Origin: a virus
Reading direction: 5' to 3' (one strand)
Length of the DNA: 64,000 nt
Virus record (IMG/VR): IMGVR_UViG_3300006916_000044
Coordinates: 1-64,000 of that record
Part shown: positions 3,001 through 64,000 of the stretch, in pieces
How positions within the stretch are numbered: position 1 is the stretch's first letter
Layout of the letters: every line of letters begins with the position of its first letter
Notes under the pieces: model-generated
The model's input: the letters and a program-made list of their open reading frames with translations, nothing else
What the model was told of the DNA's origin: nothing
Databases searched by the model: none
Made by a program: the position numbers and the translations under genes

Positions 3001-4529
3001 GTTTAAGACATAATACAAGTTATACTAATGCAGATATTTGTTGTTCTCCTGCAATAAATATTACATTAGGAAATCCTAATCCAAATACAACATATGAATG
3101 TATACCAGGAAGTATAACACAAACTCTTTTTCCAGGTTCAAATACTACACTCTCATTAACTGATCCTGGACAACCTAAATATTACTTAAATAATGTTGCA
3201 ACATGGAATGCAAGTAACACACCTAATGGTTATTATACTGGTGTTGATATAAATGCAGCAAATGTTGCTTTTCTTGATGATTGGTCACAAGGAATTCTTA
3301 ATTATGCTGATACAGGTTCTATCTTAGGATCTAATGCTACAGCAAATACATCATTATCTGTTTCAACACCTTGGTTTTTTAATGGTGCACCTTTAGCTGA
3401 ACAAGCTGCTGGTTCAGGTGCATGTTTAACACAAATGCCAGATGGAACTAATGCTGCTATATTTTATTTAAATTACATTCAAATTAAAGATTCAAGTAAT
3501 AATGTTATAGCTGAAATGAATCAAACTAATAGTGTTGGCTATACAGATTTTACTGTATTGATTGGAGCTGCCCTTAATGATCCTAATTTAGTTAATGCTT
3601 CATGGTCTACTATAGCAGCAGCTTTTAGTAGAGGTTCTGCTTATACATATAGCACTAATTTTCAAGCATTTGGTTGTTCTTATGATTGTAGATGTGAAGA
3701 AAGTCCAACAGGAACATTTAATACTATAGAAGAATGTCAAAATTCTGGATGTTGTAATACTGGATGTACAGATTCACAAGCTGATAATTATAATCCTGGT
3801 GCTGGAATTGATATTGGAAATTGTATATATTGTACAAATTTTGAAGCTGTACTTTTAAATTTTCAAGGCCCTCCTGTACCAAATGGAAATAGTGGTAATT
3901 GGAATGGAGCAACAAATTTAAATATTCCTGGATATGTAGTAATAGCTACAGGTTCTGGTGGTAATCCTCAATCTTATGACACAACTTATTATTATGATGG
4001 TTATAATATGAATCAAGCAGTAGATGGTTTTAATTTATTTCCTGGTAGATATACAGTATGTGTTGAAGATGTATCTACAGGATGTAGAGATTGTATAAGT
4101 AATGTAAACGTTGGAGTTATACCTTTAGCTTGTCGTTCAGGAGCTTCTAATTGGTGGCCAATGACTACTTGGAGAAGTGATAATCTGATAAATTTCATTA
4201 ATGCTGGTAATCCAGATTTTGATAATGCAACTAATTTATATTCATATAGTAATAATATTAATATTCAATGGGGTATAAATGCTACTAATACAGGAGCAGA
4301 AGGAACTACGTTTTGGATTCTTAATTTAAATTCTTCAGTAACTTATACAATTAACGTTTATAATAATGCCACTGGGGCATTACATCAAACTGCATCTGGT
4401 GTAACTGGAGCTGGAGTTGGTATTGCAAATGCTGTACCAGGAACAACATATGATATTGAAATTATAAGAGAAAATGAAACGTGTAGTATAATTGGAATGC
4501 CTTATACATTTAGTCCTCCAGGATTTTGA
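3..4529 (+). CDS. Large Cys-rich repeat protein, putative virion adhesin/fibre (5'-truncated by the window edge)
   Basis: The frame is open from position 3 (KQPYHDRDPN...NLWM) into the 126..4529 ORF. It has six GC(T/M)(D/N)xxAxNY repeats, most ending DDGSC, an SprB-like segment (DGSITLGVVGGVAPYTYAW...LTGLCGGVYTVLVTDS) and an Ig/FN3-like C-terminus. Confidence 0.6.
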   Translation, partial: KQPYHDRDPNTTWNSATDGAGNPTPCWKADHDEFVIQRNLWMSVDASRQSNFFMYPSEPQNVGNGHRPFPLHCLGAITSGDKTPLDGTLNTAPTSLVANPQLLTPITTSNPYFASGYGALDQHGWGTNVAMLPFTAATFQADLNEFVDIQSCNDSECFLFVVKDQHGNPVEDHPIKINTETIGYTDEYGLLRWCVRDASINTQHILDLCTCLTTTGGCSSQKINMTITDSRFTNCATVKPFTACTEPEETQSSGNDKQGCTDPAADNYDPSATVDDGSCTFCSNFNVTGTVVDATESGGSCANDGSITLGVVGGVAPYTYAWFGPGGPHTGDTLTGLCGGVYTVLVTDSSTPQPCQAPAQFTVNQPPSIIYGCTNTEACNYDATATNDDGSCLFSGCTNTSAVNYDPAATADCNCNPPSSPLYQNVVNWDSCCTACVDGCMDPNANNYDAAATCDDGSCTYNYSCIQVGSSTGSTINPCEQSGLTYMGTISMGWMSFYTFDWQAPNTSYTNLPINSVYFASSIGSPLPDQCTDDDGNPIWRATSITFKWGSIDGTSCASTPWPQSWTNVGLVPDVVGGDSKIFNTQSWDDIIYLLNLTITQENQQYINPNTGNPIQTFTGFDYNSVYQIMLASQGTAAPGNSQPSANLLIPECPNYIFQPQAGKAACVCTSNVTPTCECQQMTDGSGTYATIDQCQQDPNSCCYTESTVNYVCVPGGITNSCSNKQLIPTSAPVSTQTNLGDNLAQEWTSDPVNWPIVPVHNYKFYVDQGGGNCQALTGNSEWFIKEIKLTRVDTGTFVSIGDVPVANSWAILQGALAGAGYDGTTYPDLSNADYMTVKTTLATSEPGQWTLEVFEQMCNCTSDGGCDCIADPNGDYTDYQTCLTTCCQSTTNQYGCTDTTAYNYYPQANMDDGSCLYCDDIVTPIDNVTTTTVDPSSGVNDGIIVINLSTTVPNGMVVRVDLYDSSYTLVGTQDIPTGSSGTNPGFENLGQDNYTAVACLRHNTSYTNADICCSPAINITLGNPNPNTTYECIPGSITQTLFPGSNTTLSLTDPGQPKYYLNNVATWNASNTPNGYYTGVDINAANVAFLDDWSQGILNYADTGSILGSNATANTSLSVSTPWFFNGAPLAEQAAGSGACLTQMPDGTNAAIFYLNYIQIKDSSNNVIAEMNQTNSVGYTDFTVLIGAALNDPNLVNASWSTIAAAFSRGSAYTYSTNFQAFGCSYDCRCEESPTGTFNTIEECQNSGCCNTGCTDSQADNYNPGAGIDIGNCIYCTNFEAVLLNFQGPPVPNGNSGNWNGATNLNIPGYVVIATGSGGNPQSYDTTYYYDGYNMNQAVDGFNLFPGRYTVCVEDVSTGCRDCISNVNVGVIPLACRSGASNWWPMTTWRSDNLINFINAGNPDFDNATNLYSYSNNINIQWGINATNTGAEGTTFWILNLNSSVTYTINVYNNATGALHQTASGVTGAGVGIANAVPGTTYDIEIIRENETCSIIGMPYTFSPPGF
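777..3830 (+). repeat. Dispersed ~21-aa GCTDxxAxNYDxxAxxDDGSC coding repeats (6 copies, starting at 777, 1116, 1188, 1317, 2688, 3762)
   Basis: Read directly from the translation. Confidence 0.9.
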
Positions 4530-22709: not shown

Positions 22710-22737
22710 TAAAATTAGTTAAATTGGTTAATTTTTA

Positions 22738-22753
22738 GTATATTAATAATGTA
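22738..22753 (+). promoter_or_regulatory. Conserved intergenic motif copy 3 (GTATATTAATAATGTA)
   Basis: Same 16-bp consensus, upstream of ATG 22776. Confidence 0.6.
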
Positions 22754-53599: not shown

Positions 53600-53725
53600 T
53601 TATTTAGAAGTTTTAAGTATTAGTGCTTTTAGTTTTTCTTTAAGCCATTCATGATCTGGATGCTTAACTGTAGCTAAAAGTTTAAATGATATTTCTTTTG
53701 CTGTTTTATTTATTATTTTTTCCAT
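53600..53725 (-). CDS. Small hypothetical protein (41 aa, MEKIINKTAKEISFKLLATVKHPDHEWLKEKLKALILKTSK)
   Basis: Translated by hand; not in the ORF track. Its start overlaps the thioesterase 3' end and its stop abuts the convergent stop at 53599. Confidence 0.55.
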   Translation of the reverse strand: MEKIINKTAKEISFKLLATVKHPDHEWLKEKLKALILKTSK

Positions 53726-54104
53726 TGTATTTATCTTTTACTTTATGACTAATTGGTATTGGCTCTCCTTGCTCATCTATTCTAACAAATGTCATGTTAG
53801 TTGATAGAACAACAGCTTGTCTACCGTTATATACATTATGTGATCTAGCTTCTAAACCAAGTTTAATACTTGTTTCTCCTACTTTATGTACTTTACCGTA
53901 TATTTTAATAAGCTGACCTTCTTTTGTTGGTCTTTTAAATATACATTTATCTATAGAGACAGTCACCATTCTAGGTGTGTCACAACATTGAGCTGCAAAA
54001 GCAGCAGCGCTTGCATCTAACCAAGCTAATAATTTTCCTCCAAAAAGATTTCCGTGAAATCCTAAATCTGATTTTTTTACTGGATGTGTATTTAATAAAT
54101 CCAT
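53706..54104 (-). CDS. Hotdog-fold acyl-CoA thioesterase (YciA-like)
   Basis: DLGFHGNLFGGKLLAWLD..VTVSID..G.TS..TFVRIDEQGEP signature. Confidence 0.9.
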   Translation of the reverse strand: MDLLNTHPVKKSDLGFHGNLFGGKLLAWLDASAAAFAAQCCDTPRMVTVSIDKCIFKRPTKEGQLIKIYGKVHKVGETSIKLGLEARSHNVYNGRQAVVLSTNMTFVRIDEQGEPIPISHKVKDKYNGKNNK

Positions 54105-54120
54105 TCTTAATGTTTAGTTA

Positions 54121-54190
54121 ACATAAACTGAGGTTACATTACGTATCTTATTTATATGAAACGTATAGATGTAACCCCAGTTGTTTATGT
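54121..54190 (-). repeat. Long imperfect inverted repeat (RNA hairpin) between nrdJ and the thioesterase gene
   Basis: Arms ACATAAA-CTGAGGTTACAT-TACGT and ACGTA-ATGTAACCCCAG-TTTATGT. The central mismatch becomes a G-U pair in the - strand transcript. Confidence 0.75.
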
Positions 54191-54222
54191 ATTGATTATG
54201 ATTATTGTTTTTGCATTAGGTA

Positions 54223-56082
54223 CTATGTGATTTCACATGCGCCACCAGCACAAGCAAGTTCACCTTTTAGATCAGTATTATCATCAAGTTCTACAACTTT
54301 TGTAAGATCAACAGAAGTTACTGAGCTTATTAGCTCATTGTATTCTTTTTCTGTTATATCTTCAAATGGAGCTTGAGTATAAGTACCTCCATCATATGGT
54401 AATACAGATAAACCATTGTAATGGTCTCTGTTTTCCCACATCCATTCACCAGCTTGTTCCCATTCATCTTCTTTAAGAGACACTGTAGCAGAAACATTAT
54501 GAGTATTAGATCCTTTTCTATGACCAGGTTTAACCCATTCTGTAGCTATTTTCTTTATTCTCTCTAGTAGATCAAATGGTGATTCAGTTCTAAGTGTTGA
54601 TCCTTCTGGTGCTTTTTGAGGAATACTAATGATTGCAGTATCATGACCACGGAATACACAGTCTTCAATAAGCTCAGGATGATGTACAGAAAGATATGTG
54701 TATATAGCTTCATTCTTACCAACTCTTATTCTTCTTAAATAGTAATCATTATGCCAAGCATGAATACCAGAAGAAGTTCCAAGAGTTAAAGATGTAGTAC
54801 CCGCAGGTTTTACAGTAGTGCATCTTGCTGAAGAGTTAATACCTAATAGTCTAGCAATAAATTCATTTTCTTTTTTTACTATTTTTGCTGCCTCAGTAAG
54901 ATTTAGAGAAGACACTTTACCACTTGCTATTCCTGTCATAGATACACCAATAAGAGCATCTTTTTCAGTTGTTTCTTTCCATATCTGTCTAAGATAGTGG
55001 AAGTTAGTATAGCTAGCTTGAAGTGTTCCAATAAATGCTGCAGCTTTAACTCTTTCATTTAAATCTTCTTGAGACTCAACGTTTGATACATTTACTTCAC
55101 ATAAATTGCAAAATTGAAAAGGACGTAGTGCTATCTCACAACATGGGTTTGTACCCCAATCTTTATCATTATTAAAGTATATACCAGGTTCACCAGCACC
55201 AGACAATTCAACACGTTTCCATAAATCCATAAAGAAAGATTTAGTAATCTTATGTCTCATTAATACAGCTGAGTTGTTAGCTCTACCACGTTGTGGATTT
55301 AGTTCCCACCATGGTCCAGACTTACAACCAATCATTTGATCATCATCTGCACTAAATAAACTAATAAGAGCAGCACGTCTAATACCACCAGCAAGAACAG
55401 CATCAGCTATATAACAAATCATATCATGTACTTCAAGTGTAGATAGTTTATCACCATCTTCTTTAGCGCTTAGTAAACCTTCTAACTTTAATAAACATTC
55501 TTTAAGTGGTTGAGGACCAGGAGCTTTACCACCAGATGTAACTAGTCTAGCACCTTTAGGTCTAATGTCTGAAAAGTCAAATTCTATTTTAGATGATCTT
55601 GTTCCAAAATAAGATTTAACTAAAACTTTAATAGAATCAGCCCAACCTTCAATAGAGTCACCAATTAAGTATCTTTTTGATCTTTTTTTAAACGGTTTAT
55701 TTATAGAAGGAAGCTTGTCTACATGATGTTTCTGTACTGAATAACCAACGCCTGTACCACCTAAAAGTAAAAACATTGTTTCATTAAAAGCATCTAATGC
55801 ATTAATAGGTAAATAAGCACAGTTATATACACGGTTAGGACTAACCTCAATTGGCTTACCGCCAAATTGCATAGATCTCATAGAAGGTAAAATCTTCTTA
55901 TCATATACAAATTTATATACATCCTCTATTTCACCTTTAAGGCCAGGATATTTTTTTATATGCATGTTTTTGTTACGAGTGACTAGTTCTTCCCAAGTCT
56001 CTCTTCTATTGTGTTCAGGTAAGTATTTTGCATACTTCATATGAACAGTAATTTCACTTAAAATTTTGTTACTTAGATTCAT
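54223..56082 (-). CDS. nrdJ: Class II (adenosylcobalamin-dependent) ribonucleotide reductase
   Basis: VYNCAY, GGIRRAALI, TNPCCEI, VKPAGT and C-terminal CAGGAC. No small-subunit gene adjacent. Confidence 0.9.
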   Translation of the reverse strand: MNLSNKILSEITVHMKYAKYLPEHNRRETWEELVTRNKNMHIKKYPGLKGEIEDVYKFVYDKKILPSMRSMQFGGKPIEVSPNRVYNCAYLPINALDAFNETMFLLLGGTGVGYSVQKHHVDKLPSINKPFKKRSKRYLIGDSIEGWADSIKVLVKSYFGTRSSKIEFDFSDIRPKGARLVTSGGKAPGPQPLKECLLKLEGLLSAKEDGDKLSTLEVHDMICYIADAVLAGGIRRAALISLFSADDDQMIGCKSGPWWELNPQRGRANNSAVLMRHKITKSFFMDLWKRVELSGAGEPGIYFNNDKDWGTNPCCEIALRPFQFCNLCEVNVSNVESQEDLNERVKAAAFIGTLQASYTNFHYLRQIWKETTEKDALIGVSMTGIASGKVSSLNLTEAAKIVKKENEFIARLLGINSSARCTTVKPAGTTSLTLGTSSGIHAWHNDYYLRRIRVGKNEAIYTYLSVHHPELIEDCVFRGHDTAIISIPQKAPEGSTLRTESPFDLLERIKKIATEWVKPGHRKGSNTHNVSATVSLKEDEWEQAGEWMWENRDHYNGLSVLPYDGGTYTQAPFEDITEKEYNELISSVTSVDLTKVVELDDNTDLKGELACAGGACEIT

Positions 56083-56208
56083 TTTTTTTTAATTTTTACT
56101 TACGTTAATATTAGGTGGGATAAATAAGATAAGAAAATACAATTTACTTTCTTAGTTTTTTTATATAAAATTGATGCAATCATGATTTTTTTATTTTGTT
56201 TTTTTTCA

Positions 56209-56224
56209 GTATATTATATATGTA
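56209..56224 (+). promoter_or_regulatory. Conserved intergenic motif copy 4 (GTATATTATATATGTA)
   Basis: Same consensus, in the divergent intergenic region before ATG 56250. Confidence 0.6.
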
Positions 56225-56249: not shown

Positions 56250-56558
56250 ATGGATTCTCAACAAGATATAATAGTAATGGGGCTAAGAATTGATAATATG
56301 GAAAAAAAATTAGATGAAATTGATAAAAAATTAGATTCTTTAACTATCAAATTATTAGATCCAGATAATGGTTTTGTTACCAGGGTAAATAAGAATACAT
56401 CCTTTAGAGATAAAATGGGTGAGTTTTTACCGTATTATGAGGATACTATTTCAGAAATGGAATCTTTAAAGAAATGGAAAAACAATGTTACTAAAGCACT
56501 TTGGGTAATTTTTACTGCAGTTATTGGTTGCATAGTTAAACTAATGTTCTTTGCATAA
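56250..56558 (+). CDS. Coiled-coil protein with C-terminal transmembrane helix (holin/XhlA-like architecture)
   Basis: Heptads IDNMEKKLDEIDKKLD; hydrophobic ALWVIFTAVIGCIVKLMFFA end. Confidence 0.55.
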   Translation: MDSQQDIIVMGLRIDNMEKKLDEIDKKLDSLTIKLLDPDNGFVTRVNKNTSFRDKMGEFLPYYEDTISEMESLKKWKNNVTKALWVIFTAVIGCIVKLMFFA

Positions 56559-57130
56559 TGGCACGTTCTAACACAGGAAATAAAGGATTTAATCAACAGT
56601 TAGTTACTGTTACACCAAACACGTGGACAGATTTATTACCACGTGATACTAATGAAAGACGTATAAACCAAAACTTAAGAGGACTTACAATAAACAAATT
56701 AATAATTCAAAATACAGGTACAGATGATATAACTGTATCAGTTAAATTTATATCTAGAGATCCACAAAGCCCGCATGATGAATATGAAGGAGAAGTAATT
56801 TCTGACAAAATTATATCAGGTTCACATAGAAGAGGTAGCAACGGTACTACTACAGCAAATAATTTAATAAATTTTAGTAAGCCTATGGGCCGTGGTGTAG
56901 AAGGTTATGGTTTTGGTGGTCATGATGCAAACACAATTGCTGATTGGAATGGTTTAACATATACAGGAGTATTAGAAATGGATTTTGTAAATTATCAATT
57001 GCAATTTCCAAACATGCAGTCTGTTCAATTTAAAGCTAATGTAGGAAGTGGTTTTATTGCAACTTTAATTATGAATGACAACCAAATAAAAATGAAACAA
57101 ACAGTAGGTGGTAATGGTATAAAAATGTAA
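56558..57130 (+). CDS. Hypothetical beta-rich protein
   Basis: 190-aa ORF, TAATG-coupled to the upstream gene. Confidence 0.5.
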   Translation: MARSNTGNKGFNQQLVTVTPNTWTDLLPRDTNERRINQNLRGLTINKLIIQNTGTDDITVSVKFISRDPQSPHDEYEGEVISDKIISGSHRRGSNGTTTANNLINFSKPMGRGVEGYGFGGHDANTIADWNGLTYTGVLEMDFVNYQLQFPNMQSVQFKANVGSGFIATLIMNDNQIKMKQTVGGNGIKM

Positions 57131-57134
57131 TAAA

Positions 57135-57416
57135 ATGGCAAAAGAATTAAATGAAGATACTAGTTTTAAAATAAGTCTAAAAACATTAGGAGGAATAGCG
57201 GTTTTAATTTTTACTCTTGTTGGTATGTGGTTTACTTTACAAGCTGATATTGCTGAAGCAAAAGAGTTACCAGCTCCACCAGATCCAGAAGTTACACGTA
57301 TGGAATTTGACATGAAAGATCAAATGATACGTAGCACAATTATGACTACACAAGAAGATGTTAAAGAAATAAAAGAGTCTCTTGAAAAAATAGAAGATAA
57401 ATTATATAATAGATAA
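57135..57416 (+). CDS. Single-pass membrane protein with C-terminal coiled coil
   Basis: TM segment LGGIAVLIFTLVGMWFTL, Pro linker, then heptads VKEIKESLEKIEDKL. Confidence 0.7.
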   Translation: MAKELNEDTSFKISLKTLGGIAVLIFTLVGMWFTLQADIAEAKELPAPPDPEVTRMEFDMKDQMIRSTIMTTQEDVKEIKESLEKIEDKLYNR

Positions 57417-57417
57417 A

Positions 57418-57543
57418 ATGAGAAAGAAACCAACAATACAATTTAAAGGTAACAAACGAACCAAAAGACCTGGGGTACACAGCAAAAATGCTAGTAAAGG
57501 TCAAAATGGTTATAAAAACAAATACCGTGGGCAAGGTAGATAA
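57418..57543 (+). CDS. Small basic protein ending YRGQGR (41 aa)
   Basis: Translated by hand: MRKKPTIQFKGNKRTKRPGVHSKNASKGQNGYKNKYRGQGR. ATG follows the previous stop by 1 nt. Absent from the ORF track. Confidence 0.7.
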   Translation: MRKKPTIQFKGNKRTKRPGVHSKNASKGQNGYKNKYRGQGR

Positions 57544-57895
57544 TAATATAAATACTGTATGGAAAATTTTTCTAACATACTTACTGTTGTTATTTTGCTT
57601 GCTTGTCTCATCGGATGCTTATTCTCAGATAACAGTGAAACATTTTAATGCAGGATGGAATAGTGCTAATGATGTAGAATGGTTCTCCAAATTAAAAGAG
57701 TGTGATAAAAGTTCTCTTTTAATAGATAAAGATGACAATCAAAAAAAATATCAAATAGCTGTTGTACCAACTATTATAATATTTAAAGATGATGAAGAGG
57801 TAAAACGTTTTCAAGCAGATCTAAGTTTTAAAATGGTTGCCACTAGAAAAGAAATACAGGATTTTATAGATGAATTAATAATGAGTGATTTTTAA
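57527..57895 (+). CDS. Exported thioredoxin-fold protein lacking CxxC (start uncertain: ATG 57488 or GTG 57527)
   Basis: Signal peptide ..LLVSSDAYS/Q. FNAGWNSAN replaces FxAxWCxxC. cis-Pro motif YQIAVVPTIIIFKDDEEVKRF. Confidence 0.75.
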   Translation: MGKVDNNINTVWKIFLTYLLLLFCLLVSSDAYSQITVKHFNAGWNSANDVEWFSKLKECDKSSLLIDKDDNQKKYQIAVVPTIIIFKDDEEVKRFQADLSFKMVATRKEIQDFIDELIMSDF

Positions 57896-57896
57896 A

Positions 57897-60359
57897 ATGA
57901 AAAAATTTTTATTTATAGTATTTGCAATGATTGCACAAATAGCTGTGTCTCAAAACTCATATGTAGTTATAGAAGCACAGTATGATTCATGGGGACCTGC
58001 AGAATCTCAATTTTATATTACAGATGCTCAAGGTGATACCGTATATCATCATCAACCTACAGTGCAAAGTGAATATTTATTAGATACTTTATTTATAAAT
58101 GCACAACCTCTTACTGCTATTCTTTTAGATCAATATGGAGACGGATGGCAAGATACAGGCATGCAAGGTTATTTTAGAACATGGAATAACTGTCAAGATA
58201 CAATAGTAGAATTTATATCTTCACCTACAAATTACTTTGCTACAGAAATAATAAACTTTAATTTGGGTCCATGTCAACCAAACGGACCTCCACCTCCACC
58301 ATGTTTACCTGCAGTAGTTATAATTAATTTAGATCAGTATCAATCAGAAACGTCTTGGGAGATTACTGATACTTTAGGTTTTGTAGTAGCATCAGGTAGT
58401 GGTTATGGTTCACAACCAGATTATGGAACTGTTGTTGTTCCTGTATGTTTACCACAAACGGTATTAAATTTTACAATATTTGATTCTTATGGGGACGGTT
58501 TAAATGGTTCACTTTGGCAAGGTCAAGATGGATCTTATTTTGTTAAACAATGTGGTGATACATTAGTATATGGTACAGATCCAGCTTTTGGAACAGATAG
58601 TACACACGTATTTGCTATTGATACATGTCCTCCTATATATGGATGTACGGATGATGATTATGTAGAGTGGAACCCGTTTGCAGATACTGATGATGGTAGC
58701 TGTCAAACATTAAAAGTTTTTGGATGTATTGACTCAACAGCATTTAACTATGATTCTACTGCAAATACAATGGACCTTGTTCCACAATGTGAATTTACGT
58801 TAGTGTTGCATGATCTTATGGGTAATGGTTGGGTAGGATCACACTTATCTTTAGAATTACCTGACACTTCTTTCTCTTTTACGCATACTGGAGGTTTTAA
58901 TGATGAATATCAATTTACTATAGATGCACCAGATCCTGCCGTGTTTAGATTTCATATATCTCCACAGGCAACACTAACTACTATAGAATGTGGGTTTACG
59001 CTTATGAATCCAGAAGGTGATACATTAGTTAGTGTTCAACCTCCATTTATACAACCTTTGTTTCCATATTCTTTTATTACTAATTGTGGTAATACATGTA
59101 TAGAAAAAGTTTTTGGTTGTACGGATAGTCTTGCTTTAAATTATTATGATGAAGCTAATACAGATGACAGTTCTTGTTATTATGTGGCAGGGTGTATGAA
59201 TCCGCTGTATTTAGAATATGATACAACTGCTGATTTTGATGATGGATCATGTGTAACTTTAGTTGTTGCAGGATGTATGGATTCAACAGCACTTAATTAT
59301 GATCCGTTAGCAAACGTAGAAATACCAGGGTCATGTATAGCAATAGTAGAAGGATGTATGAATCCTTTAGCATTTAATTATAATCCTAATGCTAACGTTG
59401 ATGACTCAACATGTATACCTGTTATAGATGGTTGTACAAATCCTATAGCACTTAATTATGATTCAACCGCTAATACAGACGATGGCTCTTGTGTATTACC
59501 AATACCAGGGTGTACAGATCCTAATGCACTTAACTATAATCCACAAGCAAATGTAGATGACTCAAGTTGTATAGATATAGTTTATGGTTGTACAGATGCA
59601 TCAATGTTTAACTTTGATCCTTTAGCCAATGTAGATAATGGATCATGTATACCTTTTGTTTTTGGTTGTACAGATTCTACTATGTTTAATTTTAACCCAT
59701 TAGCAAATACAGATGACAATAATTGCATTCCTTTTATTTATGGTTGTACTGATCCAGTTGCGCTCAACTACAATCCGTCAGCTAACACAGAAGATTTTAG
59801 CTGTATTGATTATATTTACGGTTGTACTGATAGCACTGCCATTAACTATGATCCGTTGGCTAATACTGACAATGGTTCTTGCATTGAAGCAATCCCAGGT
59901 TGCATGGATCAGACGGCATGGAATTACGAGTCTTACTATAATGTTAATGATTCTCTTTCTTGCCTGTACGATGCTGGTTGTATCACTGGCCCTGGAAATC
60001 CTTATTGGTTAAATGATGGATGTTATGCTTGGGTAATTGATGTAGATGATTATTGTTGTGAGAATGCATGGGACGCATCATGTCAAACAATGTATGATTA
60101 TTGTGAGTTAGGATGGCCAACAAATTTAAATGATATGTCAGTTATAGGAATTGTAGTTTATCCAAATCCAACATCCGGTATATTAAGAATTGAAACTAGA
60201 TTAAATATAGAAGTTCTAGTAATTGATATGCAAGGTAAAATAATTATAGAAGAAGAAAACATAAATACAATAGATCTATCAACTTATTCAAAAGGAATTT
60301 ATAACTTAAAGATAACAACTGATGGAAAATCATTTATTAATAAAATTATAAAACATTAA
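57897..60359 (+). CDS. Secreted Cys-repeat protein with T9SS type A C-terminal sorting domain
   Basis: Signal peptide MKKFLFIVFAMIAQIAVS/Q. DxYGDG beta-sandwich domains. 13 GCxD/N repeats. CTD VYPNPTSG..IDMQGK..IDLSTYSKGIYNLKI..KIIKH. Confidence 0.88.
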   Translation: MKKFLFIVFAMIAQIAVSQNSYVVIEAQYDSWGPAESQFYITDAQGDTVYHHQPTVQSEYLLDTLFINAQPLTAILLDQYGDGWQDTGMQGYFRTWNNCQDTIVEFISSPTNYFATEIINFNLGPCQPNGPPPPPCLPAVVIINLDQYQSETSWEITDTLGFVVASGSGYGSQPDYGTVVVPVCLPQTVLNFTIFDSYGDGLNGSLWQGQDGSYFVKQCGDTLVYGTDPAFGTDSTHVFAIDTCPPIYGCTDDDYVEWNPFADTDDGSCQTLKVFGCIDSTAFNYDSTANTMDLVPQCEFTLVLHDLMGNGWVGSHLSLELPDTSFSFTHTGGFNDEYQFTIDAPDPAVFRFHISPQATLTTIECGFTLMNPEGDTLVSVQPPFIQPLFPYSFITNCGNTCIEKVFGCTDSLALNYYDEANTDDSSCYYVAGCMNPLYLEYDTTADFDDGSCVTLVVAGCMDSTALNYDPLANVEIPGSCIAIVEGCMNPLAFNYNPNANVDDSTCIPVIDGCTNPIALNYDSTANTDDGSCVLPIPGCTDPNALNYNPQANVDDSSCIDIVYGCTDASMFNFDPLANVDNGSCIPFVFGCTDSTMFNFNPLANTDDNNCIPFIYGCTDPVALNYNPSANTEDFSCIDYIYGCTDSTAINYDPLANTDNGSCIEAIPGCMDQTAWNYESYYNVNDSLSCLYDAGCITGPGNPYWLNDGCYAWVIDVDDYCCENAWDASCQTMYDYCELGWPTNLNDMSVIGIVVYPNPTSGILRIETRLNIEVLVIDMQGKIIIEEENINTIDLSTYSKGIYNLKITTDGKSFINKIIKH
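59115..59963 (+). repeat. Tandem array of 11 ~26-aa GC(T/M)(D/N)xxAxNY..A..D..SC repeats
   Basis: Counted in the translation; ~78-bp periodicity with degenerate DNA sequence. Confidence 0.9.
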
Positions 60360-60362
60360 ATT

Positions 60363-60722
60363 ATGAAGACTAACAACGGAAGAGATAACATCTTAAACGA
60401 TATTAACTCTGCAACAACAGAAGCTATATCACCAAGTGGTACTGTATATATAGGAGCAACAGGAGAAAAATATGAAGCTATTAATGGAACTTTTTTTGCA
60501 TTTACAGCTCTTGAAAATGCTACAATAGATGCAAGCAGGTCTACAACAAACATACTTACTAAAGGTGCTAGTACAGGAGATCCTCTTATTAAAAATGTTA
60601 CAGCTGACATGACTATACCTGCTGGTGTAACAATATATGGAAACTTTTTAAGTATTGAATTAACTGCTGGTAAAGGTATAGCTTATTATAAAGATATGAC
60701 AACAGCTAAAGCAAGTTTCTAA
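60363..60722 (+). CDS. Small beta-rich putative structural protein
   Basis: 119 aa, TIPAGVTIYGNF..IELTAGKGIAY. Confidence 0.5.
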   Translation: MKTNNGRDNILNDINSATTEAISPSGTVYIGATGEKYEAINGTFFAFTALENATIDASRSTTNILTKGASTGDPLIKNVTADMTIPAGVTIYGNFLSIELTAGKGIAYYKDMTTAKASF

Positions 60723-60723
60723 A

Positions 60724-61518
60724 ATGAATATTCTAGGTTTAGGTTTAGGTATACACAAAGGTTCTACTGGTACTGCTAGTAGCGTATTAACTCCTGCAGA
60801 AATTGCAGGTGGTGCTGATATTTGGTTTGATGCTACTCAAAGAGAAAATGTTACAGAAAATGGTGGTAGAGTTACTAGTGTAAGAAATTCTGGAAATCAA
60901 AGCAGCCAACCTAATCCTGGTGTAGTAGATTGGGTTTTAAACTATATAGGTACAGAAGCAGCTTATGAGCAGACTGGTGGACAAAACAATTTACCATTTT
61001 TAAAATTTACTGGTAGTGAGTCTTTTCAAATAGAACAGACTGATAATCTTGGCACTGCTGCAAATGTGAATTATGGTACAGAATATACAATTATGATAAT
61101 TCAAGATGTTGGAGGAACAGGAACAACAAGAGGAGTAACAGGTGCAAGAAACCCTAATGGATTTGTGTGTAGGTTTAATAATTCTGATGTTTTAATACAG
61201 TCAGTATATAATAGTTCTTCATTAGCAAGTGATTCAATTCTTCCAACAGGAGGTCAAGGTTTTGGTATTATTACATGTAATACAAGTGATACAAATAATA
61301 CAAATAGTGTTAGGTTTAATGCACAGTCTAATGCTCCTGCTACTGTAAGTGGAACTCCTGTAAGTACAAGTAATATTTTTGTAGGTAAAGGAAATAATAC
61401 TACTCAATTTTATGAAGGTAATATATATGAGTGGGCATTATTTAAGTCATCTTTATCTAGTGCTGATTTAGATTTATTAGATGCTTATGTTCAAGACAAA
61501 TATAATTTTACATATTAA
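60724..61518 (+). CDS. Concanavalin A/LamG-like virion decoration or fibre-tip protein
   Basis: N-terminal LGLGLG; IWFDA..GGRVTSVRN..; FYEGNIYEWALFKSSLS..YVQDKY. Confidence 0.6.
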   Translation: MNILGLGLGIHKGSTGTASSVLTPAEIAGGADIWFDATQRENVTENGGRVTSVRNSGNQSSQPNPGVVDWVLNYIGTEAAYEQTGGQNNLPFLKFTGSESFQIEQTDNLGTAANVNYGTEYTIMIIQDVGGTGTTRGVTGARNPNGFVCRFNNSDVLIQSVYNSSSLASDSILPTGGQGFGIITCNTSDTNNTNSVRFNAQSNAPATVSGTPVSTSNIFVGKGNNTTQFYEGNIYEWALFKSSLSSADLDLLDAYVQDKYNFTY

Positions 61519-61519
61519 G

Positions 61520-62569
61520 ATGAAATATTTATTATTCATATTAGCTTTTTTTAGTTGCATGTCAGCAAACGGTCAGGTATTTAAAGATTTTTTTAAGTAC
61601 TCTACTTTATATTCATCAGTTAACGGTGGTAATTCAATATCAGACCAGACAGTATACGATGTTGCTACAGGTACTTTATTAAATGATGTTATAGAAACAC
61701 CATACAATTATACGTTAACGTTTGGGATTAGAAAGATTCAGAGATTTCAATACGAACCACAGTTACCATTTAAAGATGGTACAGAGACATCATTTAACGA
61801 TGCAGCTACTATAGGGAGAGTTAAGAAAGGTTTTGAGTATTTATTTGAGGTTGATTATGCGAGGCAACAGGGAATAGAGTTTATAAATCAAAATCACTTT
61901 TTACGATACAACACAACAAGATGGTTAGCACGTGTAGAATATTTACAAGACGGTTTTGCAGATATAAAATATTTTCAAGGTTCACAAAGATTAAGGATTA
62001 ATTCAAAGGGTAAACTCTCTTTTAACGTGGGGGCATGTCAGAGAATTTCAGAGCCCTATGGATTCAATCCGCTTGAACAATGGATGCTACCTAATGGATC
62101 ATTACACTATACACAATTGGCCCTAGATCAAGGTTACAATGTAATCTTTGACGGAGAAGGCGGTACAGAATATACTGATCCATCAGGCGCTACCGTTGCA
62201 ACAAGTAAAGAAGTGTGGGAAGCAGTAGTGGTTCCAGAAATGCTAGTTGACTATGTTGCTGCTGAGAGAAACAAATTACCTGCTCAATGGGTTCATTCTC
62301 TTATTATAGGTTTTGATTATTATAAGTATACTAAAGATATATGGATTCATGCTTGGGGTAATGTACTACCTTATCACTATAATGACGGAGGCACATATTC
62401 ATATCATAACTTTAATGATGGAGAACAATGGTATGACTATTCTGGCGGTATGATTTTTGGTTATAAAGTAACAAGAAATCTTGGTGCGTTTGTAGAAGGT
62501 AAGTATAATAAATACTGGGACAGAGAATGGTATGATTTCAAATTTGGTATTAACTATAAAGTGTTTTAA
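61520..62569 (+). CDS. Outer-membrane beta-barrel protein
   Basis: Signal peptide MKYLLFILAFFSCMSANG/Q, alternating aromatic strands, C-terminal beta-signal FKFGINYKVF. Confidence 0.75.
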   Translation: MKYLLFILAFFSCMSANGQVFKDFFKYSTLYSSVNGGNSISDQTVYDVATGTLLNDVIETPYNYTLTFGIRKIQRFQYEPQLPFKDGTETSFNDAATIGRVKKGFEYLFEVDYARQQGIEFINQNHFLRYNTTRWLARVEYLQDGFADIKYFQGSQRLRINSKGKLSFNVGACQRISEPYGFNPLEQWMLPNGSLHYTQLALDQGYNVIFDGEGGTEYTDPSGATVATSKEVWEAVVVPEMLVDYVAAERNKLPAQWVHSLIIGFDYYKYTKDIWIHAWGNVLPYHYNDGGTYSYHNFNDGEQWYDYSGGMIFGYKVTRNLGAFVEGKYNKYWDREWYDFKFGINYKVF

Positions 62570-62571
62570 TT

Positions 62572-62709
62572 ATGGCTAAGAAGAAAAAAACAAAGAGTAA
62601 AAAAGATGCATGTTATCACAAAGCTAAAGCTAAGTACAGAGTATTTCCTAGTGCTTATGCTAGCGGATATATTGCTAAATGTAGAAAACGTAGAGGTAAG
62701 ATAAAGTAA
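62572..62709 (+). CDS. Small Lys-rich protein, DACY..PSAYASG..CR motif (DUF5872-like N-terminal half, 45 aa)
   Basis: Translated by hand: MAKKKKTKSKKDACYHKAKAKYRVFPSAYASGYIAKCRKRRGKIK. TAATG-coupled to 62709. Confidence 0.75.
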   Translation: MAKKKKTKSKKDACYHKAKAKYRVFPSAYASGYIAKCRKRRGKIK

Positions 62710-62981
62710 TGGCAGTTAGAAAAACAAAAGCAGGAGCTAATCTTAAACGTTGGTTTAAAGAGAAGTGGAAAGACGAAAAGGGTAATCCTTGTGGTTCTTC
62801 TAAAAATAAGAAGACTAAAAAGTGTAGACCTACTAAACGTGTTAGTAAGGAAACACCTAGAACATGGGGCTCTTTATCTAAATCACAAAAAGCTAAAGCT
62901 GTTGCTGAGAAAAAGAAAGTGGGGATGGGCCGTAGAACTAGTTCTATCAGAAAAGGTAAGAAAAAATCTAAAAAGAAGTAA
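62709..62981 (+). CDS. Lys-rich protein, LKRWFKEKW..CRPTKRVS motif (DUF5872-like)
   Basis: Motif recognition. Confidence 0.7.
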   Translation: MAVRKTKAGANLKRWFKEKWKDEKGNPCGSSKNKKTKKCRPTKRVSKETPRTWGSLSKSQKAKAVAEKKKVGMGRRTSSIRKGKKKSKKK

Positions 62982-62983
62982 TT

Positions 62984-63247
62984 ATGGCAAGTAAAAAGAA
63001 AGGTGCAATGAAAGGCTGTTCTATTAAGAATGGTTGCAAAAGTAAAAAAGGTGGACTTACTGCTAAGGGCCGTAGAATGATTAATAAAAAAACTGGCTCT
63101 AAACTTAAAGCTCCACAACCAGGAGGAGGTAAACGTAAGAAATCATACTGCGCTAGATCAGCCGGTCAGATGAAAATGCATAACGTTAACTGTAGTAAGA
63201 CTCCAGATAAAAGAATTTGTAAAGCAAGAAGACGTTGGAAATGTTAA
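62984..63247 (+). CDS. Lys/Arg/Cys-rich small protein (GGLTAKGR..SYCARS..RRRWKC; DUF6321-like)
   Basis: Motif recognition. Confidence 0.65.
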   Translation: MASKKKGAMKGCSIKNGCKSKKGGLTAKGRRMINKKTGSKLKAPQPGGGKRKKSYCARSAGQMKMHNVNCSKTPDKRICKARRRWKC

Positions 63248-63248
63248 G

Positions 63249-63434
63249 ATGGCAAAGAAAAAATTAGACATAAAAAAAGCTATAAAAAAGCCTGGCTCAC
63301 TAACAGCTGCAGCCAAGCGTAAAGGTATGACTATAGCACAATACTGTAAGAACCCGCCTAGTAAAAAGGCCGGTTATAGATGTAGATTTGCTAAGACACT
63401 TAAAAAGATTAGTAAAAAACGTAAAAAGAAATAA
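63249..63434 (+). CDS. Lys-rich small protein (IKKAIKKPGSL..FAKTLKK)
   Basis: 61-aa ORF tightly packed with its neighbours. Confidence 0.65.
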   Translation: MAKKKLDIKKAIKKPGSLTAAAKRKGMTIAQYCKNPPSKKAGYRCRFAKTLKKISKKRKKK

Positions 63435-63436
63435 TA

Positions 63437-63886
63437 ATGCCTGTAACAACAAACCCTGTATATGCTTTTAGTACTAGATTAAGTACAACTAGAACATGGC
63501 TCCCTATTGATGGGATTGGTGCGTCCGGAACTCCAACAACTGGAGAGGATAGTGCAAAGTTTGCTACTCTTACTGTTACTAACTCAGGCTATTTAGCTAA
63601 TGATAGAGCTACTCCAATAATCTTTCATATTGCAATCTGGAAGAGATCTTTGCTTGCAGCTAATAATACTACTTTAATGGGGGCAGCAAATCAAATGGTA
63701 TTTATTAGAACTAAAGTAAGTCTAACAGGTAATAATGATGTGTTTGAATTAAAAGACTTATATATAGATAAGTTTGTTCCTAATGATTCAACACCTGAAG
63801 ATGAACCTTTAGTTTGTATTTGGATAGAAGCTACATCAGGATCTGGTGAAGCAAACGCATCATTAGATGTATGTTTAACAAGATAG
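63437..63886 (+). CDS. Hypothetical beta-rich protein
   Basis: 149-aa ORF in the operon. Confidence 0.55.
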   Translation: MPVTTNPVYAFSTRLSTTRTWLPIDGIGASGTPTTGEDSAKFATLTVTNSGYLANDRATPIIFHIAIWKRSLLAANNTTLMGAANQMVFIRTKVSLTGNNDVFELKDLYIDKFVPNDSTPEDEPLVCIWIEATSGSGEANASLDVCLTR

Positions 63887-63888
63887 TT

Positions 63889-64000
63889 ATGTGGAAATTA
63901 TTTAAAGATGAAAATGATATAAATGAAAAAGCCATAGTTGGCTTTGCTTCTTTTGTGCTAATGGTAATATTTGCAATATGTGATTTAATTACTGGATGGT
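63889..64000 (+). CDS. Membrane protein, possibly holin (3'-truncated)
   Basis: Translated by hand: MWKLFKDENDINEKAIVGFASFVLMVIFAICDLITGW; open to the window end. Confidence 0.55.
   Translation, partial: MWKLFKDENDINEKAIVGFASFVLMVIFAICDLITGW

What the first reader, a model, noticed from the sequence alone, without database searches (positions are those of the whole stretch)
57135..62569. Candidate phage-encoded host-envelope remodelling system: T9SS substrate + outer-membrane barrel + Cys-less thioredoxin + membrane anchor
Seen in sequence: one operon of an apparently lytic crAss-like phage encodes a single-pass membrane coiled-coil protein (57135), a thioredoxin fold with a signal peptide (57527), a signal-peptide protein with an intact T9SS type A CTD (57897) and a beta-barrel with a terminal-Phe beta-signal (61520). 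Established: Sec, BAM and T9SS carry such proteins to the Bacteroidota surface, and virion proteins normally do not carry these signals. Inference: the infected cell is made to display phage-encoded surface proteins. Possible roles are superinfection exclusion or receptor masking, adhesion to particles or neighbouring cells, or anti-grazing. I do not know of a described system with this composition.
Basis: partly seen in the sequence, partly recalled or inferred. Interest (0 to 1): 0.9.

Follow-up and report, generated by a model that had tools for sequence, protein, structure and literature searches.

The report
Phage envelope module beside lysis genes
An uncultured marine crAss-like phage carries four conserved genes whose products are addressed to the inner membrane, the periplasm, the outer membrane and (through the host's type IX secretion system) the cell surface; in related phages this set lies inside the lysis gene cassette, so it probably acts on the host envelope at the end of infection in a way that has not been described.

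Summary
All four ORFs are present, with the stated signals. The type-A T9SS C-terminal domain passes both curated HMM cut-offs and superposes on a solved cargo CTD. The thioredoxin fold has lost its CGPC loop. The last protein models as a roughly 14-stranded outer-membrane barrel of no known family. The set is not a chimera or a host moron. Of 57 well-flanked related viral loci, all have the barrel, the TM coiled-coil protein and the Trx-like protein, and 53 also have the cargo, in three cyclic rotations of one gene order. The barrel family occurs only on viral or mis-binned contigs.

In relatives the module abuts an endolysin (M15, Amidase_2 or DUF5675) and the holin. A typical order is TM protein, cargo, barrel, TM coiled-coil, Trx-like, endolysin, holin. 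In this window a holin lies 2.3 kb downstream and an XhlA-like protein 0.6 kb upstream.

My best reading (0.45) is a late, lysis-linked device that spans the envelope, with spanin-like logic plus a surface cargo. Pure surface display for exclusion or receptor masking remains a live rival. No function has been shown.

The scan noted this module before on other genomes; I reached the lysis link independently. Novelty: a new variant of a known kind. Interest: 0.7.

The parts
56250..56558 (+). XhlA-like protein: N-terminal coiled coil and a C-terminal TM segment. It heads the gene run that contains the module and is preceded by the promoter-like motif at 56208-56224.
   Evidence: phrog_1193 'hemolysin' (XhlA type), E 2.8e-5. 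The motif AGTATATTA-N4-TGTA is also found at 22737, with 0.02 expected by chance.
57135..57416 (+). TMcc: a 93-aa type II inner-membrane protein. It has an N-terminal TM segment (about aa 17-35), a Pro-rich linker and a roughly 40-aa amphipathic helix. The architecture is i-spanin-like.
   Evidence: Sequence. 57-96% identical in relatives. Found on at least 493 IMG/VR contigs and in at least 8000 protein clusters. No Pfam or PHROG family.
57488..57895 (+). Exported thioredoxin-fold protein without CxxC. Alternative starts are at 57506 and 57527. It has a signal peptide ending AYS|Q and an invariant C-terminal Phe.
   Evidence: weak Trx HMM hits. (profile against PDB thioredoxins, 2.1e-7, CGPC loop deleted). 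(39/39 without CxxC; 39/39 end in Phe).
57897..60359 (+). T9SS type-A cargo, 820 aa. It has a signal peptide (VS|Q), three beta-sandwich domains, 13 Cys repeats of 26 aa, a Cys-rich helical domain and a C-terminal sorting domain (aa 754-818).
   Evidence: PF18962 in 23/30 orthologues; AF2; 8glk_D, 7pq4; repeats; 41 Cys.
60363..60722 (+). Small protein without an export signal, lying between cargo and barrel. Its relatives sit just upstream of the barrel in many loci.
   Evidence: No family hit.
60724..61518 (+). LamG / concanavalin-like protein without an export signal. LamG-like genes recur next to the module in relatives.
   Evidence: phrog_10356 'virion structural protein', 5.4e-4. Relatives hit PF13385 Laminin_G_3.
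61520..62569 (+). Outer-membrane beta-barrel, 349 aa. Signal peptide ending ANG|Q, about 14 strands, a helical insertion at aa 184-251, and the C-terminal sequence ...NYKVF.
   Evidence: fold. (phage-only family: 3449 clusters at 90% identity, 286 at 50%). (no Pfam family in 29 members). (not PorP/SprF).
63871..64000 (+). Start of a 77-aa TM protein ('TM77') that runs to genome position 64104. In relatives it directly precedes the cargo or follows the module. The holin (phrog_3427) lies at genome 64866-65258, outside the window.
   Evidence: TM77. (holin, E 4.1e-32).

Best explanation
The four genes form one conserved, phage-specific envelope module that belongs to the late/lysis gene set.

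During late infection the products are placed in advance in the four layers of a Bacteroidota envelope. TMcc goes to the inner membrane with its coiled coil in the periplasm. The Cys-less thioredoxin-fold protein goes to the periplasm. The barrel enters the outer membrane through Sec and BAM. The Cys-repeat protein reaches the cell surface or medium through Sec and the host T9SS.

I think the most likely job of the core trio (barrel, TMcc, Trx-like) is the envelope step of lysis that spanins perform in other Gram-negative phages. It would link the inner and outer membranes and break or open the outer membrane once holin and endolysin have acted. The T9SS cargo would be a surface-exposed, fast-evolving accessory of the same device, for example one that binds surface glycans or receptors at release.

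Shown: the targeting signals, the folds, the conservation as a unit, restriction to phages, and adjacency to endolysin and holin.

Inferred: late expression, physical assembly, any role in outer-membrane disruption, and the role of the cargo.
For: Unit:
- Of 57 loci with at least 6 kb on both sides of TMcc, all have the trio and 53 have all four genes.
- The orders seen are three cyclic rotations of one order (36, 12 and 5 loci), so every pairwise adjacency occurs somewhere.
- Loci seeded by the barrel and loci seeded by TMcc agree.

Lysis context:
- Of 118 non-duplicate loci, 55 have a peptidoglycan hydrolase or DUF5675 within 3 kb of the module. The gap is 11 bp or less in 22 of them; the median gap is 365 bp.
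- Example L090: TM77 > cargo > barrel > TMcc > Trx > endolysin (phrog_894, 1e-35) > holin (phrog_3427, 5e-27), with abutting ORFs.
- Different lineages keep the slot but swap the enzyme. These include Peptidase_M15_3 (L055, directly upstream of TMcc), Amidase_2 (L039, phrog_822 4e-52; L053 with PG_binding_1) and DUF5675. DUF5675 is proposed as a C82-like lysin in bioRxiv 10.64898/2026.04.11.717860.

This window:
- All credible membrane or secreted ORFs of the 91-kb contig cluster at 56.2-65.3 kb together with the holin.
- The run starts with an XhlA-like gene behind a motif shared with a giant virion gene.

Architecture:
- TMcc has i-spanin topology.
- Cultured phages with the same holin family carry a similar TM plus coiled-coil protein next to endolysin and holin: Nonlabens phage P12024L gp13 and Vibrio phage 1.238.A gp24.

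Conservation and distribution:
- Identity to the window protein is at core-gene level: median 75% for TMcc, 55% for the barrel, 54% for the Trx-like protein and 46% for the cargo.
- The barrel family has no cellular members.
Against: - No expression, localisation or lysis data exist.
- A spanin-type role does not explain the T9SS cargo, which is present in 53 of 57 loci, or the Trx-like protein.
- A beta-barrel as the outer-membrane partner of a spanin-like system has no precedent. No lipoprotein o-spanin is present.
- No spanin family matches TMcc.
- In the window's own lineage, no endolysin of seven common families is found anywhere in four complete genomes. The adjacency argument therefore rests on the holin, TM77 and relatives.
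- Late structural and tail-fibre-like genes also flank the module, so adjacency may reflect a shared late region only.
- At least one cultured Flavobacteriia phage (P12024L) lyses without a barrel or Trx-like homologue.
Confidence: 0.45

Rival explanations
1. Surface display without a role in lysis. The infected cell exports the Cys-repeat protein through T9SS. The barrel acts as its dedicated outer-membrane anchor or shuttle, in a PorP/SprF- or PorV-like role. The Cys-less Trx fold acts as a periplasmic holdase for the cargo, which has 41 Cys. TMcc acts as an inner-membrane tether. The purpose would be receptor masking so that progeny are not lost on debris, superinfection exclusion, or adhesion.
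For: - All signals are intact and conserved.
- The cargo is modular and is the most variable member, as expected for a surface-interaction protein.
- Its Cys repeats recur in the phage's own large virion proteins and in cyanophage structural proteins, so the module is suited to the extracellular milieu.
- Cargo-barrel adjacency recalls pairs of host T9SS cargo with PorP/SprF (own knowledge).
- Phage-encoded T9SS cargo and phage outer-membrane proteins have been reported (PMC7468147; bioRxiv 10.64898/2026.10.24.761521).
- T9SS and gliding surface proteins are known phage receptors in Flavobacterium (own knowledge).
Against: - The trio persists without a recognisable cargo in 4 of 57 loci.
- The barrel shows no profile similarity to PorP/SprF (hhalign probability 12%, signal peptide only). 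It matches PorV no better than unrelated barrels.
- Exclusion genes are usually early, whereas this set sits with late and lysis genes.
- The tight linkage to endolysin and holin is left unexplained.
Confidence: 0.27
2. Lysis-timing control. TMcc and the periplasmic Trx-like protein, with the barrel and cargo as envelope sensors, would act as an antiholin or lysis-inhibition system like T4 RI/RIII. It would sense envelope state or superinfection and delay or trigger the holin.
For: - Position next to the holin and endolysin.
- Periplasmic and membrane-anchored regulators are common in lysis cassettes (own knowledge).
- An XhlA-like protein and a second small TM protein (TM77) accompany the set.
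Against: - No similarity to known antiholins.
- A 349-aa outer-membrane barrel and an 820-aa secreted protein are heavy machinery for timing.
- Conservation of the barrel is higher than expected for a dispensable regulator.
Confidence: 0.1
3. Virion or assembly proteins. The CTD would be only an Ig-like fold on a fibre protein, the 'signal peptides' would not be used, and the set would belong to the neighbouring tail-fibre genes.
For: - The module lies on the structural-gene strand next to LamG-like and giant Cys-repeat proteins.
- Cys repeats are shared with virion proteins.
Against: - Three different proteins keep Sec-type signal peptides with the Bacteroidetes [ASG]-Q site in 32-47 orthologues each.
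- A transmembrane beta-barrel with a terminal Phe is not a virion fold.
- The CTD is 31% identical to a genuine translocon-bound CTD.
- The virion-like neighbours lack such signals.
Confidence: 0.05
4. Artefact or recent host capture: a chimeric assembly, or a moron taken from a Bacteroidota host.
For: T9SS CTDs and outer-membrane barrels are typical host genes.
Against: - G+C content matches the rest of the window.
- Depth is even across 52-64 kb in three independent runs, for example 143-165x in X1, with near-identical tiling contigs.
- The same synteny appears in more than 100 viral contigs from many samples.
- The only 'genome' hits are MAG contigs of incongruent taxonomy, including Woesearchaeota, Nitrosopelagicus and Rickettsiales, which indicates mis-binned phage.
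- The Atlas clusters are 100% viral.
Confidence: 0.01

Closest known systems
Two-component spanins (lambda Rz/Rz1 type)
   Same: An inner-membrane protein with an N-terminal TM segment and a periplasmic coiled coil is paired with an outer-membrane protein. The genes are encoded next to the endolysin and holin, and the products accumulate in the envelope before lysis.
   Different: The outer-membrane partner here is a 349-aa beta-barrel with a signal-peptidase-I site, not a small lipoprotein. The periplasmic part of TMcc is only about 58 aa. A periplasmic Trx-fold protein and a T9SS cargo are additional members. There is no sequence or family match to spanins.
Phage-encoded T9SS type-A cargo of 'Cryophage' (Bellas et al. 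2020, PMC7468147) and T9SS sorting-domain ORFs on gut crAss-like contigs (de Jonge et al. 2019, PMC6949934)
   Same: Phage genes with a signal peptide and a T9SS C-terminal sorting domain, which vary between phage variants.
   Different: Those were enzymes or BACON proteins noted singly in flexible islands or near head genes. Here the cargo is one member of a conserved four-gene set with a phage-only barrel, TMcc and Trx-like protein, linked to lysis genes.
Phage-encoded outer-membrane proteins (lambda Lom/Bor; OMPs of huge phages, bioRxiv 10.64898/2026.10.24.761521; cyanophage Phage_OMP PF24653)
   Same: A phage gene for a Sec- and BAM-targeted beta-barrel, implying that the infected cell's outer membrane is modified.
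   Different: Those outer-membrane proteins usually have host homologues (OmpA, OmpX, TonB-dependent receptors). This barrel family has no cellular member and no Pfam family. It is fixed in a trio with inner-membrane and periplasmic partners.
T9SS cargo with a dedicated PorP/SprF-like barrel (SprB/SprF of Flavobacterium johnsoniae; own knowledge)
   Same: A large repeat-rich T9SS cargo is encoded next to a barrel gene of about 300-350 aa.
   Different: That pairing concerns type-B CTDs, whereas this CTD is type A. The barrel shows no profile similarity to PorP/SprF taken from four Bacteroidota MAGs.
PBSX-type lysis module XhlA/XhlB/XlyA (own knowledge)
   Same: A coiled-coil membrane protein accompanies the holin and amidase. 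An XhlA-like gene heads the run in this window.
   Different: That system comes from a Gram-positive host and has no outer-membrane or secreted components.

Membership tests
T9SS type-A cargo (TIGR04183 / PF18962) | HMM match above the curated cut-off, located at the extreme C-terminus | tested here: met
   PF18962 51.3 bits (cut-off 27). TIGR04183 47.1 bits (cut-off 23). Residues 754-820 of 820. 23 of 30 orthologues match.
T9SS type-A cargo (TIGR04183 / PF18962) | N-terminal Sec signal peptide | tested here: met
   MKKFLFIVFAMIAQIAVS|Q. 32/32 orthologues have a hydrophobic N-terminus followed by [ASG]-Q. This was my own script, not SignalP.
T9SS type-A cargo (TIGR04183 / PF18962) | CTD beta-sandwich fold like that of solved cargo CTDs | tested here: met
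   8glk_D (NucA CTD in the translocon): TM 0.84, rmsd 1.3 A, 31% identity. 7pq4 (RgpB CTD): TM 0.60.
T9SS type-A cargo (TIGR04183 / PF18962) | Host possesses a T9SS and the protein is actually secreted by it | not testable with these tools
   The host is uncultured. Four Bacteroidota MAGs that hold related phage contigs carry 5-6 or more PorP/SprF genes each, but binning does not prove the host.
Outer-membrane beta-barrel (BAM substrate) | Signal peptide, closed antiparallel barrel and a C-terminal aromatic beta-signal | tested here: met
   AF2 pLDDT 81, about 14 strands. Best matches are all outer-membrane barrels: TamA Z 11.2 (rmsd 3.6, 185 aligned), BamA and Omp33. Terminal Phe in 39/47; signal peptide in 47/47.
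PorP/SprF (PF11751) | Sequence or profile similarity to the family | tested here: not met
   No Pfam hit in 29 members. hhalign against 9 PorP/SprF sequences from Bacteroidota MAGs gives probability 12%, with only the signal peptide aligned.
PorV / FadL-like T9SS shuttle | Specific structural similarity to PorV | tested here: inconclusive
   6h3i_F Z 8.3 (rmsd 5.7, 177 aligned), at rank 19 among unrelated barrels.
Thioredoxin | Thioredoxin fold with the cis-Pro loop | tested here: met
   Profile of 28 orthologues against the PDB: 2vim_A 2.1e-7 and about 60 further thioredoxins. 'vvPT' aligns with the cis-Pro motif.
Thioredoxin | Catalytic CxxC motif | tested here: not met
   The CGPC loop is replaced by a 5-residue deletion; the sequence reads F-N-A-G-W-N-S-A-N. 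39/39 orthologues lack CxxC. It therefore has the fold but is not a redox enzyme.
Two-component spanin | i-spanin: N-in TM segment plus a periplasmic coiled coil, encoded beside the endolysin or holin | tested here: met
   TMcc topology read from sequence. In relatives it lies one gene from the endolysin, for example L090, L085 and L055. In this window the holin is 2.3 kb beyond the barrel.
Two-component spanin | o-spanin: a small outer-membrane lipoprotein with a lipobox, overlapping or adjacent to the i-spanin gene | tested here: not met
   No such ORF is present. The adjacent outer-membrane protein is a barrel with a conserved [ASG]-Q signal-peptidase-I site. A lipobox-like VSC occurs in only some orthologues.
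Two-component spanin | Match to a known spanin family | tested here: not met
   TMcc has no Pfam, PHROG or NCBIfam hit. The only hit in any locus is a weak Rz-like one (phrog_739, 5.9e-5), on a different 99-aa protein in L053.
Phage exclusion OMPs and lipoproteins (Lom, Bor, Llp, Cor) | Homology to one of these families | tested here: not met
   No Pfam or PHROG hit for any of the four proteins beyond the CTD and Trx. No match in 50,697 GenBank phage records for the barrel or TMcc.

The most novel reading that the evidence does not exclude
The barrel, TMcc and the Cys-less Trx-fold protein would form a previously unknown, beta-barrel-based machine that spans the envelope and replaces spanins in abundant marine Bacteroidota phages. 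It would be functionally coupled to a protein that the phage sends to the cell surface through the host's T9SS. This would be a new class of phage lysis and egress device that exploits a host secretion system.
Probability: 0.25. Interest if true: 0.85.

Novelty: new variant of a known kind. Interest (0 to 1): 0.7.

Why it matters
How phages of Bacteroidota breach the outer membrane is essentially unknown. Canonical spanins are rarely found in them, and none is recognisable here.

This module is conserved, phage-specific and very abundant in ocean metagenomes: TMcc occurs in at least 8000 protein clusters and on at least 493 IMG/VR contigs. Its function therefore bears on carbon turnover by marine Flavobacteriia phages.

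If the trio is a lysis device, it defines a new solution to the outer-membrane step. If instead it is a display system, it is the first conserved case of a lytic phage using T9SS with its own outer-membrane and periplasmic helpers.

Either way it gives a concrete four-gene unit that can be expressed in Flavobacterium johnsoniae. It also gives positional support for DUF5675 as an endolysin.

Tried and rejected
- Complex prediction on barrel + TMcc periplasmic part + mature Trx-like protein returned no verdict (score 0.00, controls not run). It is not evidence either way.
- The look-up of sequencing runs listed no RNA holder, so nothing can be said on expression.
- Sigma-70 promoter and intrinsic-terminator scans of 53.5-64 kb were not above the shuffled controls.
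- The promoter-like motif shared by 22737 and 56208 is not conserved in relatives (5 sites in 1.6 Mb).
- The barrel has no Pfam family in 29 members, no PDB sequence relative, no GenBank phage match and no PorP/SprF profile similarity.
- TMcc has no GenBank phage match.
- The endolysin of the window lineage was sought with seven families (PF18925, PF01510, PF08291, phrog_894, PF00959, PF01464, PF13539) in G000 and four complete relatives. None was found.
- The first genome-contig scan with the wide alignment failed for lack of conserved columns. It was repeated with a narrower alignment.
- Three small signal-peptide proteins that replace the cargo in cargo-less loci showed no CTD by Pfam.
- Whole-cargo Foldseek gave only generic beta-sandwich (C2/ferlin, LamG) matches for the N-terminal domains. 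No enzyme domain was found.


Full report
**What is there**

The window is the first 64 kb of a 91,370-bp linear IMG/VR contig estimated to be 79% complete. It is crAss-like: the 2756-aa ORF at 9718-17988 matches the crassvirus muzzle protein (PF25731, E 1.2e-28). No integrase is detectable, and G+C content is uniform at 26-35%.

On the + strand, the following genes run after the giant virion and cargo genes and a short inverted RNR/thioesterase pair:
- an XhlA-like coiled-coil/TM protein (56250-56558; phrog_1193, 2.8e-5);
- an unknown 190-aa protein;
- TMcc (57135-57416);
- the Trx-like protein (57488-57895);
- the T9SS cargo (57897-60359);
- two non-exported proteins (60363-60722, and the LamG-like 60724-61518);
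- the barrel (61520-62569);
- three small basic proteins;
- an unknown protein;
- a 77-aa TM protein (63871-64104).

Beyond the window end lies a holin at 64866-65258 (phrog_3427, 4.1e-32). In the whole contig, every credible membrane or secreted ORF lies between 56.2 and 65.3 kb.

**Check of the four proteins**

Cargo:
- The C-terminal sorting domain passes both curated thresholds: PF18962 51.3 bits against 27, and TIGR04183 47.1 bits against 23.
- In the AF2 model (pLDDT 74) it superposes on the NucA CTD bound in the F. johnsoniae type 9 translocon (8glk_D: TM 0.84, rmsd 1.3 A, 31% identity) and on the RgpB CTD.
- The rest is three beta-sandwich domains, 13 Cys repeats of 26 aa and a Cys-rich helical domain, with 41 Cys in all. 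No enzyme domain was found.

Trx-like protein:
- A profile of 28 orthologues hits about 60 PDB thioredoxins (best 2vim_A, 2.1e-7).
- The alignment shows a 5-residue deletion where CGPC should be and keeps the cis-Pro 'vPT'.
- None of 39 orthologues has CxxC, and all 39 end in Phe.

Barrel:
- The AF2 model (pLDDT 81, pTM 0.75) has about 14 strands and a helical insertion.
- Foldseek and VIA-align return only outer-membrane barrels: TamA Z 11.2, BamA, Omp33, LpxR, OMPLA, and PorV Z 8.3 at rank 19.
- No Pfam family matches any of 29 members.
- A profile comparison with PorP/SprF proteins taken from four Bacteroidota MAGs aligns only the signal peptide (probability 12%).

Signal peptides:
- A signal-peptide-like N-terminus followed by [ASG]-Q, the Bacteroidetes Q-rule, is conserved in 47/47 barrels, 32/39 Trx-like proteins and 32/32 cargos.
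- The barrel ends in Phe in 39/47 orthologues.

TMcc:
- It has one N-terminal TM segment, a Pro-rich linker and a roughly 40-residue helix with 3-4 hydrophobic spacing.

**Not an artefact and not a host gene**

- Near-identical contigs from at least three independent studies tile 52-64 kb. Depth is the same in the module and in the flanking phage genes, for example 143-165x in run X1.
- The barrel family comprises 3449 clusters at 90% identity and 286 at 50%.
- It is absent from 50,697 GenBank phage records.
- Among one genome for each of 185,579 prokaryote species, it is found only on 12 MAG contigs of mutually incongruent taxonomy, including Woesearchaeota, Nitrosopelagicus, Rickettsiales and Flavobacteriales. 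This indicates mis-binned phage DNA.
- The ESM Atlas clusters are 100% viral.

**Co-occurrence**

- In 42 IMG/VR loci seeded with the barrel and 80 seeded with TMcc (out of at least 493 matching contigs), the genes travel together. Trx-like is in 78/80, the barrel in 74/80 and the cargo in 61/80. The gaps are mostly at contig ends.
- Of 57 loci with at least 6 kb on both sides of TMcc, all have the trio and 53 have all four genes.
- The gene orders are three cyclic rotations of one order: barrel>TMcc>Trx>cargo in 36 loci, cargo>barrel>TMcc>Trx in 12, and TMcc>Trx>cargo>barrel (as in this window) in 5.
- Even barrels only 33-36% identical keep TMcc, and where the contig reaches that far also the Trx-like gene, adjacent (L055, L056).
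- In four loci the trio lacks a recognisable cargo. In three of them another signal-peptide protein fills the slot.
- Median identity to the window proteins is 75% for TMcc, 55% for the barrel, 54% for the Trx-like protein and 46% for the cargo. The TMcc family alone exceeds 8000 clusters at 90% identity.

- In relatives the module is part of the lysis cassette. Of 118 non-duplicate loci, 55 have a peptidoglycan hydrolase or DUF5675 within 3 kb of the module. The gap is 11 bp or less in 22 of them, and the median is 365 bp.
- In L090 the abutting ORFs read TM77, cargo, barrel, TMcc, Trx-like, endolysin (phrog_894, 1.1e-35), holin (phrog_3427, 4.9e-27).
- Different lineages keep the slot and swap the enzyme:
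  - Peptidase_M15_3 directly upstream of TMcc in L055 (1.8e-19);
  - Amidase_2 in L039 (phrog_822, 3.8e-52);
  - PG_binding_1 plus Amidase_2 in L053;
  - DUF5675 directly after the cargo in about 20 loci. A 2026 preprint proposes DUF5675 as a C82-like lysin (10.64898/2026.04.11.717860).
- Cultured phages that share this holin family have the same endolysin-holin pair flanked by a TM plus coiled-coil protein of about 90-110 aa with TMcc-like architecture. Examples are Nonlabens phage P12024L gp13 and Vibrio phage 1.238.A gp24. They have no barrel, Trx-like protein or cargo.
- In the window's own lineage the holin, TM77 and the XhlA-like gene flank the module. However, no endolysin of seven common families is found in G000 or in four complete relatives of 114-123 kb. 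This remains unexplained.
- The run containing the module starts behind a motif, AGTATATTA-N4-TGTAAC at 56208, that also precedes the giant virion gene at 22776. Two matches were found against 0.02 expected, which hints at shared late transcription in this phage. The motif is not conserved in relatives.

**Interpretation**

Shown: four conserved, phage-specific proteins carry targeting signals for four envelope layers of a Bacteroidota cell. They are inherited as a unit and are genetically embedded with the endolysin and holin.

Inferred: they are made late and pre-positioned in the envelope.

- I give 0.45 to the reading that the trio (inner-membrane coiled coil, periplasmic Trx fold, outer-membrane barrel) carries out or assists the outer-membrane step of lysis by spanin-like logic, with the T9SS cargo as a surface accessory.
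- I give 0.27 to the main rival: a pure surface-display system for receptor masking or exclusion, with the barrel as anchor and the Trx fold as holdase for the Cys-rich cargo. It explains the cargo better but explains the lysis linkage and the cargo-less trios worse.
- Lysis-timing control (0.10), virion roles (0.05) and artefact (0.01) follow.
- The complex prediction gave no verdict and is not used.

**Comparison with what is known**

- Phage-borne T9SS cargo has been noted in 'Cryophage' (PMC7468147) and on gut crAss-like contigs (PMC6949934).
- Phage-borne outer-membrane proteins and a sortase-based display route have been noted in huge phages (10.64898/2026.10.24.761521).
- None of these describes this trio, its union with a T9SS cargo, or its place in a lysis cassette.
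- It fails two defining spanin features: there is no lipoprotein o-spanin and no family match. It is therefore not a spanin, although it may work like one.

This scan noted the same module earlier on other genomes. One follow-up and one first-reader note also link it to lysis genes. I reached that link independently, and the notes agree with it. I rate it a new variant of a known kind, with interest 0.7.

Noticed in passing
window 62709-63434: Three consecutive small Lys/Arg-rich, Cys-bearing proteins (90, 87 and 61 aa) follow the barrel. They are up to 97% identical in relatives, more conserved than most neighbours. They may be DNA-binding or internal virion proteins.
   Followed up: partly
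window 3-4529 and 58641-59975: The 26-aa Cys repeat GC[TM]D..A.NY.P.A..DDGSC occurs 13 times in the cargo and 6 times in the 1508-aa ORF at the window start. It also occurs in a cyanophage S-CAM3 virion structural protein and in a NIOZ-UU157 muzzle protein. It appears to be a widespread extracellular module of marine phages with no Pfam family.
   Followed up: partly
G000 and complete relatives G001-G004 (whole genomes): No endolysin of seven common families (DUF5675, Amidase_2, M15_3, phrog_894, Phage_lysozyme, SLT, M15_4) is found in the window lineage, although the holin is kept. The wall-degrading enzyme of this lineage is unidentified.
   Followed up: partly
window 22737-22753 and 56208-56224; genome 65865: The promoter-like motif AGTATATTA-N3/4-TGTA(AC) lies about 40 nt upstream of gene 22776, of the XhlA-like gene 56250 and of gene 65883. 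Two matches were found in the window against 0.02 expected. The motif is not conserved in relatives.
   Followed up: partly
L023:12884-13351, L013, L015, L016, L020, L024-L026, L029-L031, L036, L038, L045, L046, L049 and others: DUF5675 (PF18925, phrog_1501 'unknown') occupies the exact slot that Amidase_2 or M15 endolysins occupy in sister lineages. This is positional support for its proposed lysin function.
   Followed up: partly
L142 (Nonlabens phage P12024L gp13) and L141 (Vibrio phage 1.238.A gp24): Cultured marine phages with the same holin family carry an unannotated protein of 88-113 aa, with an N-terminal TM segment and a coiled coil, next to the endolysin and holin. The architecture matches TMcc, but BLAST finds no similarity.
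   Followed up: partly
window 62547 joined to 57134 in run X3: A contig in one metagenome joins the barrel end directly to the TMcc start through 28 other letters. This indicates a co-occurring strain with the commoner gene order barrel>TMcc.
   Followed up: no
window 56558-57130, 60363-60722, 63437-63886; genome 66179-66595: Several small proteins without signals and with no family hit are scattered through the region. Relatives of 60363 and 66179 recur, sometimes in two copies, next to the module in other loci.
   Followed up: no
window 57488-57895 and 39 orthologues: The exported Trx-like protein ends in an invariant Phe (...IDELIMSKF), which is unusual for a soluble periplasmic protein. 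It might dock into a partner such as the barrel or a PDZ protease.
   Followed up: no
window 53706-56082 (- strand): A ribonucleotide reductase (phrog_367, 1e-131) and a thioesterase-like ORF are inverted between the giant cargo genes and the module. The RNR recruits very deep reads from other organisms in the metagenomes.
   Followed up: no
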